DNA of 64,000 bases, taken from NCBI RefSeq assembly GCF_003790525.1, contig NZ_CP033635.1. One strand, 5' to 3'. How positions within the stretch are numbered: position 1 is the first letter of the stretch; each line of letters starts with the position of its first letter. Below, piece by piece: positions 32,920 through 34,617 of the stretch. Origin of the DNA: Escherichia coli. Lineage in GTDB: Bacteria; Pseudomonadota; Gammaproteobacteria; Enterobacterales; Enterobacteriaceae. A program made the translations under genes and the position numbers. The notes beneath the pieces are model-generated. The model was not told the DNA's origin, made no database searches, and saw nothing but the letters and a program-made list of their open reading frames with translations.

Positions 32920-33767
32920 AAAGCATTATCACCAGTTAGTTATACAGTAAATATACCCCGAGTAAAAACAGGGCGGTTTAGGATATGTCTGGCTCCGGGT
33001 ATTCTACTATGTAATCAGGGAATAATGGACAATGAGAATACAACAGACACTTTTAATATTTCCGACTGTTTATCAAAATAATTTTATCCTTTGTGAATAT
33101 ATTGTTTTTATCAGATGATTTACTTATTTTCCAGGAAAATAAAATCCTTCGATTTCAGGACGCTCAGAGGAATATACCTGCTTCCGTCAAAAATCATAAA
33201 AACCGTGTCCCGATTAGTTTTAGCAGCAGGATCAAATGCAGTAATATCATGATCTTATACCAGTAAGCCACTGGGAAATGCCCTCAAAATGTCGTGCACT
33301 GATTTTTCGGTTGAGAGCCTCATAATACCTAATATTACTGGCCGTAATAATCCGGAGGCACAGCATAGCTTTCTTGTACAGAGGCATCATGATGAACAGG
33401 ATTAATACCGTCACAGATGCACAAGTTTTACCCGTGATAAAGAATCCCGTTTTGTCCGCACTTGCCTGCGCCAGCGTTGAAAACGTGCCGGTTATTGTAG
33501 TTAAGTTATTGCCGCTAACTTTTTCACAACCCACCTATCCGGATATTTCCTTATTCTTCATATATTACATCTCATAAATTTAAATGTGAGTTTCTCATGG
33601 GTAAAATAAATTATACGAATCGCATCAATAGGAAAGACAGACGGTGCTGCCGATATAAAACGGGAAGTGACGGGATAAGCAGTTATGTGAATATTGTTTC
33701 AAAAAATGATATTTTGTGTTGTTAAAGTATAACTTTGCAATAAGCTATCCATGATGGGATTCTGTAA

Positions 33768-33983
33768 ATGAACAAAACACTCTCTTCAATTCTGCTCATC
33801 TTCGGTATCTGTGCATCATCACTGGCTGCTGATAAAAAAGAACCGTCAGTTTTCCACGATGTGAAGGGCAGGAAGCATCGGCTGTTTCAGCCAGCGTCAA
33901 ACGGAACTATCTCCAGAAACAGGTGCTTCACAGGAAAGATGACTAGGTGCTCCTCAGTCAGCAGCGTCCTGTTGTCTGGGTGA
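33768..33983 (+). CDS. small hypothetical protein with signal peptide, possibly frameshifted
   Basis: N-terminal signal-like sequence; a second coding-like frame continues 33986-34126; AT-rich context. Confidence 0.2.
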   Translation: MNKTLSSILLIFGICASSLAADKKEPSVFHDVKGRKHRLFQPASNGTISRNRCFTGKMTRCSSVSSVLLSG

Positions 33984-34545
33984 ATCTTCGTGAGCTGGTA
34001 AGTAAAGGTGATAATTTAGTCACAGCGCATCTCACCGCCAGGGGGAATAAAGCCGATATTCAGTATCGGGTGCGCATTGACTGTAAGAACGAAAACGCTA
34101 TCTGGCAGCGCCAGGGATGAACGCTTGAAGATAACCACAGAGTATGAACAAACGGACTCTACATGTTCATTATGACTAAAAAAACGCTGCACGTTCTCTG
34201 TTTTATTTTACGTTGCTGTCATAACGTGTTTACCTCAATTTTCGGGAACGTGTTCTTAGCGCTTAGACTACCCCTGAATCTTCTGCTGTTGAAGGGCCGT
34301 AACAGGGTAAGTGATAACAGATGTCTGGACATATAGGAGCAAATTCACCGATTTACTTAATCATGATGTTATTTTGTAAAATAAGCTGAGGGGAGTTTCA
34401 CATAATGTTAGTTTTTGTGTAAACGCAAGAAGGAAAATCAATAAAATTAATATATAGTTATATGTTGTAGGTGTGAGTATGACTGTTTGGCCGTGGAGTG
34501 CATTCCTAAATTAGGATTGGATAATTTAAGGTTTAACACATTATT

Positions 34546-34583
34546 AAATACGGCAAATTACAGTAAAATACTTTGCCGTATTT
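34546..34583 (-). terminator. hairpin downstream of the cytochrome b562-like gene
   Basis: 12-bp perfect inverted repeat AAATACGGCAAA / TTTGCCGTATTT with 14-nt loop, 35 bp beyond the stop codon. Confidence 0.5.
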
Positions 34584-34617
34584 AGAAATAAAATTAAATT
34601 TTTCTATAGAATATTAT

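What the first reader, a model, noticed from the sequence alone, without database searches (positions are those of the whole stretch)
32920..34617. AT-rich islet with almost no coding capacity between the deacetylase and the b562-like gene
About 1.7 kb of very AT-rich sequence contains only short ORFs. One (33768-33983) has a plausible signal peptide and a second coding-looking frame follows it (33986-34126), suggesting a frameshifted small exported protein. Such AT-rich islets in islands are typical silenced horizontally acquired DNA and can hide small RNAs or regulatory elements.
Basis: inference. Interest (0 to 1): 0.35.

Follow-up and report, generated by a model that had tools for sequence, protein, structure and literature searches.

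The report
Broken YebF copy amid gene debris
The AT-rich 1.7 kb gap is ordinary decayed DNA in an E. coli genomic island: a dead copy of the small secreted protein YebF surrounded by fragments of three other genes or elements and leftover control regions.

Summary
Window 32920-34617 is 38.4% GC against 48.5% for the window, and its longest ORF is 95 aa. Window 33768-34120 (+) is a pseudogene of an island-borne YebF paralog (Pfam YebF E=1.2e-22; PDB 2LQV E=1e-20). An intact 117-aa allele exists in other E. coli. RefSeq annotates only the C-terminal 57 codons as a "YebF family protein".

The rest is debris:
- a phosphoethanolamine-transferase C-terminal relic (33250-33424, -);
- the first ~38 codons of an outer-membrane beta-barrel gene (33413-33527, -);
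- a deletion scar where dolP-like and thioredoxin-like genes were lost (34165-34178);
- an 81-bp IS2-like stump with both ends (34267-34347);
- the 3' flank and terminator hairpin of the cytochrome b562-like gene.

The left 330 bp is the upstream region of a dead pO157-type ecf operon. No RNA family matches, and nothing suggests a hidden small RNA. The finding is ordinary, already largely annotated, and of low interest.

The parts
32099..32919 (-). Left neighbour, outside the finding: an ecf1-type polysaccharide deacetylase pseudogene (frameshift, internal stop). Its start codon abuts the finding.
   Evidence: RefSeq annotation of the identical sequence in LR-31. The intact homologue in LH50-c is 90.5% identical in protein to plasmid Ecf1. 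The DNA is 86% identical to pO145 ecf1.
32920..33249 (.). AT-rich (34% GC) upstream and promoter region of the dead ecf-like operon. No gene or relic was recognised in it.
   Evidence: Clear DNA homology to the pO145 ecf1 upstream region covers only 32920-32971. Further upstream there is only weak residual similarity: 210 identities against 192 +/- 4.5 in shuffles. The region is 95% conserved in LH50-c, where the operon genes are intact. No A-tract phasing signal was seen.
33250..33424 (-). Relic of the C-terminal part (about aa 400-457 of 500) of a phosphoethanolamine transferase gene, with one frameshift.
   Evidence: blastn at 72-77% identity to phosphoethanolamine transferase genes in thousands of E. 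coli records. tblastn gives two adjacent HSPs in different frames, combined E=1e-14.
33413..33527 (-). Relic of the start (signal peptide and first strand, about 38 codons) of an outer-membrane beta-barrel protein gene, with a 4-nt deletion just after the GTG start.
   Evidence: 74% DNA identity to the locus in PK-F-10122 (L005), where the 249-aa OMP gene is intact and divergent from yebF. tblastn E=4e-9. The intact protein matches Pfam OMP_b-brl at 7.6e-19.
33247..33534 (-). The longest ORF in the tract (95 aa). It is a chance chimera of the OMP relic and the transferase relic, not a gene.
   Evidence: ORF list; no Pfam family; its two halves align to two unrelated proteins.
33528..33767 (.). 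Former divergent intergenic region between the OMP gene and yebF, where the promoters would lie. It contains a weak sigma-70-like site at 33579-33607.
   Evidence: Alignable to L005 and L002 with one 77-bp indel. The promoter scan found no more sites than shuffles do.
33768..34120 (+). Pseudogene of an island-borne YebF paralog. The signal peptide and first 24 codons are in frame 3; codons 25-117 are in frame 2.
   Evidence: The joined frames hit Pfam PF13995 YebF at E=1.2e-22, 80 bits against a cutoff of 27. They hit PDB 2LQV YebF at E=1e-20 and NCBIfam YebF_not_Cmi at 94 bits, below its 110 cutoff. They are about 80% identical to the intact 117-aa allele in L005. tblastn shows the two frames.
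33834..33839 (+). Frameshift site. An A6 run replaces the AAAAA(C/T)A of intact alleles, a 1-nt deletion.
   Evidence: DNA alignment of five alleles and tract comparison.
33944..33946 (+). In-frame amber codon TAG where intact alleles have CAG (Gln). It is shared with the L003 and L004 alleles.
33905..33917 (.). Recombination breakpoint inside the pseudogene. Upstream the window resembles the LH50-c type; downstream it resembles the GF43 type.
   Evidence: Informative-site table: 18 of 20 sites match L002 up to 33905, and 37 of 44 match L003 from 33917 on (5 match L002, 2 neither).
33947..34120 (+). The 57-aa GTG ORF that RefSeq annotates as 'YebF family protein' WP_001354053.1. It is only the C-terminal half, with no signal peptide and no partner cysteine.
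   Evidence: annotation. NCBIfam match covers only profile positions 64-111, at 44.7 bits against a 110 cutoff.
34165..34178 (.). Deletion scar. About 1.19 kb carrying a dolP paralog and a small thioredoxin-like gene, present in LH50-c and PK-F-10122, is missing here.
   Evidence: Window 31775-34164 aligns to L002 3855-6247, and window 34179-34250 aligns to L002 7438-7508. Annotation of L002 and L005.
34267..34347 (+). IS2-like (IS3 family) stump. The left terminal repeat is fused to the last ~60 bp of the right end, and all coding sequence is deleted.
   Evidence: blastn hits to IS2 and IS3-family ends. Direct comparison with complete IS2 copies: TAGACT..CCCCTGAATCT at the left, and 35 of 37 identities at the right end. 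Homology with strains L26 and 23CRST011 stops exactly at 34347.
34348..34617 (.). 3' flank (30% GC) of the cytochrome b562-like gene.
   Evidence: Composition. It is present only together with the b562-like gene in the 27 genomes that hold the full tract.
34540..34589 (-). Strong hairpin 29 nt after the b562-like stop codon, a probable intrinsic (two-way) terminator.
   Evidence: Inverted repeat I1. RNA fold gives -20.7 kcal/mol, z=-6.0 on the minus strand and -16.9 kcal/mol, z=-5.4 on the plus strand.
34618..35007 (-). Right neighbour, outside the finding: an intact cytochrome b562-like gene (129 aa).
   Evidence: ORF; Pfam Cytochrom_B562 at 6.7e-16; RefSeq WP_001354052.1.

Best explanation
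The tract is a graveyard of horizontally acquired genes inside a decaying E. coli chromosomal island next to ynjA and an integrase. It once held a divergent pair, an outer-membrane beta-barrel gene (-) and a yebF paralog (+), followed by dolP-like and thioredoxin-like genes. This sat beside a pO157-type ecf lipopolysaccharide-modification operon. In this lineage the OMP gene was cut down to its first ~38 codons and fused to a scrap of a phosphoethanolamine transferase gene. The dolP and thioredoxin-like genes were deleted. An IS2-like element inserted and then lost its interior. The yebF paralog was killed twice, by a 1-nt deletion 24 codons in and by an amber codon at codon 60. It can no longer make the exported, disulphide-bonded ~96-aa mature protein. 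At most it could yield a signal peptide followed by out-of-frame residues. The remaining AT-rich stretches are the orphaned upstream region of the dead ecf operon, the orphaned OMP/yebF promoter region, and the terminator flank of the intact b562-like gene. Shown: the homologies, lesions, junctions and recombinant structure. Inferred: the order of events, and that nothing functional is expressed.
For: - The sequence is identical or at least 99.7% identical in 29 of 5426 complete E. coli genomes, always on the chromosome. The island is full of annotated pseudogenes.
- YebF identity of the joined frames: Pfam 1.2e-22, PDB 2LQV 1e-20, tblastn of the intact allele split over two frames.
- The lesions were located by alignment to the intact allele and three other broken alleles.
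- They are fixed in the lineage. The SNPs in the three full-length window-type genomes compared (L010-L012) fall elsewhere, L26 matches the window up to 34321, and 16 further genomes are listed at 100.0% identity.
- Phosphoethanolamine transferase relic.
- OMP relic.
- Deletion scar.
- IS2-like stump.
- ecf homology of the left neighbours.
- No Rfam family over 30000-38000.
- Promoter-like sites are no more frequent than in shuffles.
- The yebF 3' region has no unusual structure, z -0.1 to -0.4.
Against: - About 330 bp (32920-33249) and about 240 bp (33528-33767) have no assigned relic. They are only presumed to be vestigial regulatory DNA.
- No expression data could be consulted, so transcription, for example of an antisense or 3'-UTR-derived RNA, is not excluded.
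- RefSeq treats the 57-aa C-terminal ORF as a real CDS.
- The tract is 95% conserved between two island types. That fits recent common descent but does not formally exclude constraint.
Confidence: 0.9

Rival explanations
1. The yebF paralog is still expressed through recoding: ribosomal -1 frameshifting or transcriptional slippage on the AAAAAAG run restores the frame, so the gene is a regulated functional gene rather than a pseudogene.
For: The run A AAA AAG (33834-33840) has the sequence of the classic E. coli -1 slippery heptamer (established knowledge of dnaX and IS3-family frameshifting). A -1 shift is exactly what would restore the YebF frame.
Against: - An amber codon 35 codons downstream (33944-33946) would still truncate the protein before the second cysteine and the conserved C-terminal half.
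- The heptamer is out of phase with the zero frame, which reads GAT AAA AAA GAA.
- Intact alleles carry AAAAA(C/T)A at this place, so the run is a deletion product, not a conserved signal.
- The reconstructed protein falls below the NCBIfam YebF cutoff that the intact allele passes.
Confidence: 0.02
2. The A-run is a phase-variation (contingency) switch that turns an envelope or secreted protein on and off by slipped-strand mispairing.
For: Two island types carry different out-of-frame tract lengths at the same spot: A6 here and A8 in LH50-c and Ch1.
Against: - Tract length does not vary within either lineage. A6 is found in every window-type genome compared base by base (three full-length genomes plus L26 up to 34321), 16 further genomes are listed at 100.0% identity, and A8 is found in both L002-type genomes.
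- No in-frame A7 allele was seen.
- Runs of 6-8 A are short for efficient switching (general knowledge).
- The amber codon makes the switch pointless in this allele.
Confidence: 0.03
3. The AT-rich stretches hide a small regulatory RNA or a still-active cis-regulatory element, such as an H-NS nucleation site or curved DNA that thermoregulates neighbouring genes as reported for the pO157 ecf operon.
For: - The left 330 bp lies upstream of an ecf1 homologue. The pO157 ecf promoter is reported to be thermoregulated through intrinsically curved DNA (review PMC2811833, citing Yoon et al. 2004).
- Near-matches (2 mismatches) to the H-NS motif TCGATAAATT cluster at 34342-34781.
- The hairpin at 34540-34589 is very stable.
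Against: - No Rfam match at E<=1.
- The operon that the left region would regulate is dead here.
- Only 52 bp upstream of ecf1 is clearly homologous to the plasmid version, and no A-tract phasing was detected.
- The H-NS near-matches simply track 30% GC, and none has fewer than 2 mismatches.
- The hairpin sits where the b562-like gene's terminator is expected.
Confidence: 0.06
4. The YebF-domain gene is an orphan colicin M immunity (Cmi-type) gene rather than a YebF-type secreted protein.
For: Cmi and YebF share the Pfam YebF domain and fold (PMC5277000).
Against: - The best NCBIfam models are PRK13680 and 'YebF_not_Cmi', and the intact allele passes the latter's equivalog cutoff.
- The PDB search at E<=1 returned only YebF 2LQV and no Cmi chain.
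- The N-terminus ends in a cleavable SLA|A motif aligned with the YebF signal peptide.
- No bacteriocin gene is annotated nearby.
Confidence: 0.02

Closest known systems
YebF of E. coli K-12 (small Sec-exported protein released to the medium; NMR structure PDB 2LQV; Pfam PF13995)
   Same: The length is the same (117 against 118 aa). The N-terminal signal peptide, both cysteines (FPxCE and DCK motifs) and the conserved SVKRDY and PVxWV blocks are all present. phmmer gives E=1e-20 over residues 24-116.
   Different: It is only about 41% identical to the K-12 sequence. I recalled that sequence from memory and it is consistent with the 2LQV alignment. The gene is island-borne rather than at the core yebF locus. 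Here it is inactivated by a frameshift and an amber codon.
Island-borne 'protein YebF' paralog of E. coli (for example WP_045146775.1 in strain PK-F-10122; cluster P0001)
   Same: It is the same gene family and the same local synteny (OMP gene - yebF - dolP paralog). The DNA is 84-88% identical and the protein about 80% identical.
   Different: That allele is intact and passes the NCBIfam YebF equivalog cutoff (116 against 110 bits). The window allele is broken and recombinant, and its repaired translation scores 94 bits.
pO157 ecf operon (ecf1 deacetylase, ecf2 glycosyltransferase, ecf3, ecf4/lpxM), and more distantly Shigella pINV shf-rfbU-virK-msbB2
   Same: The genes left of the tract are a chromosomal homologue. 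Ecf1 is 90.5% identical in protein and Shigella plasmid homologues 69%. The DNA is 80-86% identical to pO145 ecf1-ecf3. The tract's left 330 bp occupies the position of the ecf promoter region.
   Different: In the window every gene of the operon is a pseudogene or truncated and lpxM is gone. The upstream DNA is homologous to the plasmid version for only about 52 bp.
IS2 (IS3 family)
   Same: The left end TAGACT..CCCCTGAATCT is present, and the right end matches 35 of 37 (TAAGTGATAACAGATGTCTGGA.ATATAGG.GCAAAT) in the correct relative orientation.
   Different: Only 81 bp remain, there is no transposase, and no target duplication is recognisable. The ends are diverged from IS2 proper.

Membership tests
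YebF family (Pfam PF13995; NCBIfam NF041240 YebF_not_Cmi) | Significant full-length match to the family profile | tested here: met
   The repaired translation scores 80.1 bits, E=1.2e-22, over profile positions 1-86 of 89, against a Pfam cutoff of 27. The stricter NCBIfam equivalog cutoff is not reached (94 against 110 bits), whereas the intact sister allele reaches 116.
YebF family (Pfam PF13995; NCBIfam NF041240 YebF_not_Cmi) | Sequence homology to the experimentally solved YebF | tested here: met
   PDB 2LQV chain A, E=1e-20, query residues 24-116.
YebF family (Pfam PF13995; NCBIfam NF041240 YebF_not_Cmi) | Cleavable N-terminal Sec signal peptide | tested here: met
   By inspection and alignment, MNKTLSSILLIFGICASSLA|AD aligns with the YebF signal peptide. 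No dedicated predictor was available.
YebF family (Pfam PF13995; NCBIfam NF041240 YebF_not_Cmi) | The two conserved cysteines of the mature protein | tested here: met
   Both are present in the repaired translation (PRCEG and IDCK) and aligned with those of YebF. In the real reading frames they are separated by the amber codon.
YebF family (Pfam PF13995; NCBIfam NF041240 YebF_not_Cmi) | Uninterrupted reading frame (a functional member) | tested here: not met
   A 1-nt deletion at 33834-33839 and TAG at 33944-33946. It is a pseudogene of the family, not a working member.
YebF family (Pfam PF13995; NCBIfam NF041240 YebF_not_Cmi) | Export to periplasm and medium | not testable with these tools
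   This needs an experiment, and it is moot for the broken allele.
Colicin M immunity protein Cmi (YebF fold) | Closer to Cmi than to YebF; uncleaved N-terminal membrane anchor; linkage to a ColM-type bacteriocin gene | tested here: not met
   The best model is 'YebF_not_Cmi'. No Cmi chain appeared among PDB hits at E<=1. No bacteriocin gene is annotated in the 26 kb around the locus.
IS2 / IS3-family insertion sequence | Terminal inverted repeats of IS2 type at both ends | tested here: met
   The left end has an 11 of 11 core and the right end 35 of 37 identities against complete IS2 copies.
IS2 / IS3-family insertion sequence | Transposase orfA/orfB with programmed frameshift | tested here: not met
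   Only 81 bp lie between and including the ends. It is a stump.
Known small RNA or cis-regulatory RNA families (Rfam 15) | Covariance-model match | tested here: not met
   No match with E<=1 in 30000-38000 on either strand.
pO157-type ecf operon upstream regulatory region (curved DNA 'BNT2') | Sequence homology to the plasmid ecf upstream region and phased A-tracts | tested here: inconclusive
   Clear homology covers only 52 bp upstream of ecf1. Global similarity beyond that is weak, z about 4 against mononucleotide shuffles, and AA/TT shows no 10-11 bp periodicity. The BNT2 sequence itself was not available to me.

The most novel reading that the evidence does not exclude
The island-borne module of OMP, YebF paralog and DolP paralog, sitting next to an ecf-type LPS-modification operon, is an uncharacterised accessory envelope-remodelling cassette of avian and extraintestinal E. 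coli. Its YebF paralog has been inactivated independently at least four times: A6 deletion plus amber here, an A8 insertion, start-codon loss, and IS truncation. That pattern would point to recurrent selection against this secreted protein in some hosts, rather than neutral decay.
Probability: 0.07. Interest if true: 0.3.

Novelty: already known. Interest (0 to 1): 0.08.

Why it matters
It matters little. The result explains a gene-poor AT-rich gap as ordinary island decay. It also gives a small annotation correction. The RefSeq 57-aa 'YebF family protein' WP_001354053.1 is the tail of a 117-codon pseudogene. Three unannotated relics flank it: the phosphoethanolamine transferase relic, the OMP relic and the IS2-like stump. 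The only mildly useful by-product is the recognition that some E. coli islands carry a second, diverged yebF together with OMP and dolP paralogs beside a chromosomal ecf operon. That could interest people who study envelope remodelling or use YebF as a secretion carrier.

Tried and rejected
- **Rfam scan** of 30000-38000 at E<=1: nothing.
- **Pfam on the short ORFs** of the tract (33247-33534-, 33374-33577+, 34163-34336+, 32878-33081+, 33093-33266+): no family. NCBIfam on the 71-aa signal-peptide ORF: nothing, as expected if residues 25-71 are out of frame.
- **Promoter and terminator consensus scan:** promoter-like sites are no more frequent than in shuffles. The terminator-like hits are mostly inside coding relics.
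- **Direct and inverted repeat search:** only chance-level pairs apart from the hairpin at 34540-34589.
- **Folding of the yebF 3' region** (34118-34266): not more stable than shuffles.
- **Distant blastn against plasmids** for the whole tract: only the phosphoethanolamine transferase and IS3-end hits, nothing for 32920-33256 or 33494-33672.
- **Curvature proxy** (AA/TT autocorrelation) in 32920-33249 and 34348-34617: no 10-11 bp periodicity.
- **H-NS motif scan:** only 2-mismatch sites, tracking AT content.
- **Word-indexed protein search** with the intact paralog: it returned only six close E. coli clusters, so it said nothing about origin outside E. coli.
- **Literature search** for a described YebF paralog: nothing relevant.
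- **Recoding, phase variation and Cmi-type immunity** were considered and rejected. See the rival explanations.
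Full report
**Observation.** The tract 32920-34617 has 38.4% GC against 48.5% for the 64-kb window, and only 1.8% of equally long windows are lower. It is not uniform. The right end (34300-34600) is about 30% GC, while 33850-34150 is about 50%. No ORF in it exceeds 95 aa.

**Provenance.** The tract is E. coli chromosomal DNA. Megablast finds it at 99.7% identity or better in 29 of 5426 complete E. coli genomes, always on the chromosome. In strain LR-31 the identical sequence lies in an island inserted after ynjA. The island begins with a tyrosine integrase and is crowded with annotated pseudogenes. RefSeq places three features around or in the tract:
- a frameshifted polysaccharide deacetylase ending at 32919;
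- a 57-aa 'YebF family protein' (WP_001354053.1), which corresponds to window 33947-34120;
- a cytochrome b562 gene at 34618-35007.

**The central feature is a YebF-paralog pseudogene.** Three-frame translation shows MNKTLSSILLIFGICASSLAADKK in one frame from 33768. From 33839, in the -1 frame, it shows RTVSFPRCEGQEASAVSASVKRNYLQKQVLHRKDD*VLLSQQRPVVWVNLRELVSKGDNLVTAHLTARGNKADIQYRVRIDCKNENAIWQRQG*.
- Joined, with the stop read as Gln, this 117-aa sequence matches Pfam YebF (PF13995) at E=1.2e-22 over 86 of 89 profile positions.
- It matches the solved YebF structure 2LQV at E=1e-20.
- The signal peptide, both cysteines and the conserved blocks align with YebF. Identity to K-12 YebF is about 41% (K-12 sequence recalled from memory and consistent with the 2LQV alignment).
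- tblastn of an intact allele against the window returns exactly two pieces in two frames.

**Lesions.** Related copies elsewhere in E. coli fix their nature.
- Strain PK-F-10122 (L005) has an intact 354-bp gene annotated 'protein YebF'. A more diverged intact allele is in E7-1N7 (L015). Both read GA(T/A) AAA AA(C/T) AGA at the critical place.
- The window has lost the pyrimidine, leaving an A6 run at 33834-33839 and a -1 frame requirement.
- At 33944-33946 the window has TAG where intact alleles have CAG.
- Other alleles are broken differently. LH50-c and Ch1 have an A8 run (+1). GF43 and relatives have ATA for the start codon plus the same TAG. PK8275 and relatives are truncated by an IS3-family element and also carry the TAG.

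The window allele is a recombinant. 18 of 20 informative sites match the LH50-c type up to 33905. From 33917 on, 37 of 44 match the GF43 type, 5 match the LH50-c type and 2 match neither. The lesions are fixed. The SNPs in the three full-length window-type genomes compared (L010-L012) fall outside the gene, L26 shows no difference before 34321, and 16 further genomes are listed at 100.0% identity. The RefSeq 57-aa CDS is therefore only the C-terminal half of the family profile, at 44.7 bits against a cutoff of 110. It has no signal peptide and should be a pseudogene.

The paralog family occurs at 84 places in 51 of the 5426 complete genomes, with up to five copies per genome. Intact alleles are annotated as 'protein YebF' in at least 14 of the 40 records listed.

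**Left of yebF.**
- A distant blastn shows that 33257-33412 resembles phosphoethanolamine transferase genes at 72-77% identity. Using one such gene, tblastn aligns aa 400-457 of 500 to 33250-33424 on the minus strand, in two frames, with combined E=1e-14. This is a C-terminal relic with a frameshift.
- Immediately adjacent, 33413-33629 is 74% identical to the PK-F-10122 locus. There an intact 249-aa outer-membrane beta-barrel protein (Pfam OMP_b-brl, 7.6e-19) is transcribed divergently from yebF.
- The window keeps only the GTG start (33525-33527) and about 38 codons, with a 4-nt deletion.
- The 95-aa ORF, the longest in the tract, is a chimera of these two relics.
- The stretch 33528-33767 is the former divergent promoter region. 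It aligns with L005 apart from a 77-bp indel.

**Leftmost 330 bp.** The deacetylase, glycosyltransferase and truncated transferase to the left are a chromosomal copy of the pO157-type ecf operon.
- The intact deacetylase in LH50-c is 90.5% identical to plasmid Ecf1 and 69% identical to Shigella plasmid homologues.
- The window DNA is 80-86% identical to pO145 ecf1-ecf3.
- LH50-c and Ch1 retain intact ecf1 and ecf2, and LH50-c also carries an lpxM paralog.

So 32920-33249 is the operon's upstream region. Clear homology to the plasmid version reaches only 52 bp beyond the start codon, and the remainder shows weak similarity, z about 4. The pO157 ecf promoter is reported to be thermoregulated by curved DNA (PMC2811833, citing Yoon et al. 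2004). I found no A-tract phasing here, and the operon is dead in this lineage, so any such element is vestigial.

**Right of yebF.**
- Homology to LH50-c and PK-F-10122 ends at 34164-34170 and resumes at 34179-34250, about 1.19 kb further on in those loci. The skipped stretch holds a dolP paralog (BON domains) and a small thioredoxin-like gene. The window therefore has a deletion scar at 34165-34178.
- 34267-34347 is an IS2-like stump. The IS2 left terminus is joined to the last ~60 bp of the right end in correct orientation. In strains L26 and 23CRST011 similarity stops exactly at its right end.
- The remaining 270 bp (30% GC) belongs with the low-GC b562-like gene. It contains a hairpin at 34540-34589, 29 nt after that gene's stop codon. 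The fold is -20.7 kcal/mol with z=-6, which makes it a probable terminator.

**Hidden RNAs or regulators.**
- Rfam gives no match at E<=1 on either strand of 30000-38000.
- Promoter-like sites are not enriched.
- The yebF 3' region folds no better than shuffles.
- Near-matches to the H-NS motif cluster at 34342-34781, but all have two mismatches and simply reflect AT content.
- Expression and H-NS occupancy cannot be tested here.

**Rivals.**
- Recoding at the AAAAAAG run would restore the frame. It cannot bypass the amber codon, the heptamer is out of phase, and the run is a deletion product absent from intact alleles.
- Phase variation is unsupported because tract length is invariant within each lineage.
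- A Cmi-type immunity role is contradicted by the 'YebF_not_Cmi' match and by the absence of Cmi among PDB hits.

**Verdict.** The frameshift position is corrected and a second lesion added. The rest of the tract is explained almost base by base as relics, scars and orphaned flanks. This is ordinary island decay, largely visible in existing annotation, and of low interest.

Noticed in passing
window 30669-32919 (-): This is a decayed chromosomal copy of the pO157-type ecf LPS-modification operon. ecf1 and ecf2 are pseudogenes, the ecf3/CptA-like transferase is truncated next to the integrase, and lpxM is absent. Intact ecf1 and ecf2 occur in LH50-c (L002), which also carries an lpxM paralog, and in Ch1 (L014).
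   Followed up: partly
window 34618-35007 (-) and flanks about 34348-35350: An intact cytochrome b562-like gene (Pfam 6.7e-16) sits in a separate 30-33% GC block. By eye the Met and His heme ligands of CybC seem conserved, judged from my memory of the CybC sequence. It occurs only in the 27 complete genomes that hold the full tract.
   Followed up: no
window 35457-37759 (-): An IS21-family element (ISEc12, istA and istB) is present here but absent from the otherwise identical locus in LR-31, which has an IS5-family remnant at that position. It is a recent insertion polymorphism.
   Followed up: no
window 33905-33917: The yebF pseudogene is a mosaic of two island types, LH50-c-like on the left and GF43-like on the right. 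Islands carrying this module have recombined with each other.
   Followed up: yes
L005 4074-7286; L002 5892-7998: In its more intact form the module reads OMP beta-barrel gene, then yebF paralog, dolP paralog, a small thioredoxin-like gene and a DoxX gene, followed by sitA. It is a set of envelope-protein paralogs travelling together on E. coli islands, mostly in poultry isolates.
   Followed up: partly
E. coli complete genomes: The yebF paralog occurs at 84 places in 51 genomes, up to five copies per genome. Some strains (for example TUM9803, GF60, strain 135, Ch1) carry the broken window-type allele together with another allele elsewhere. In TUM9803, GF60 and strain 135 the other allele is intact. 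In Ch1 it is the A8 frameshifted allele.
   Followed up: partly
L007 (strain L26) from 5428; window 34347: In L26 and 23CRST011 the sequence right of the IS2-like right end is replaced by a distant part of the island (an IS3-family remnant and ICE genes). This suggests a deletion mediated by IS ends that removed the b562-like gene.
   Followed up: partly
window 33947-34120 (+): RefSeq protein WP_001354053.1 ('YebF family protein', 57 aa, GTG start) is an annotation artefact. It is the C-terminal fragment downstream of the amber codon. Sister alleles in other strains are correctly flagged as pseudogenes.
   Followed up: yes
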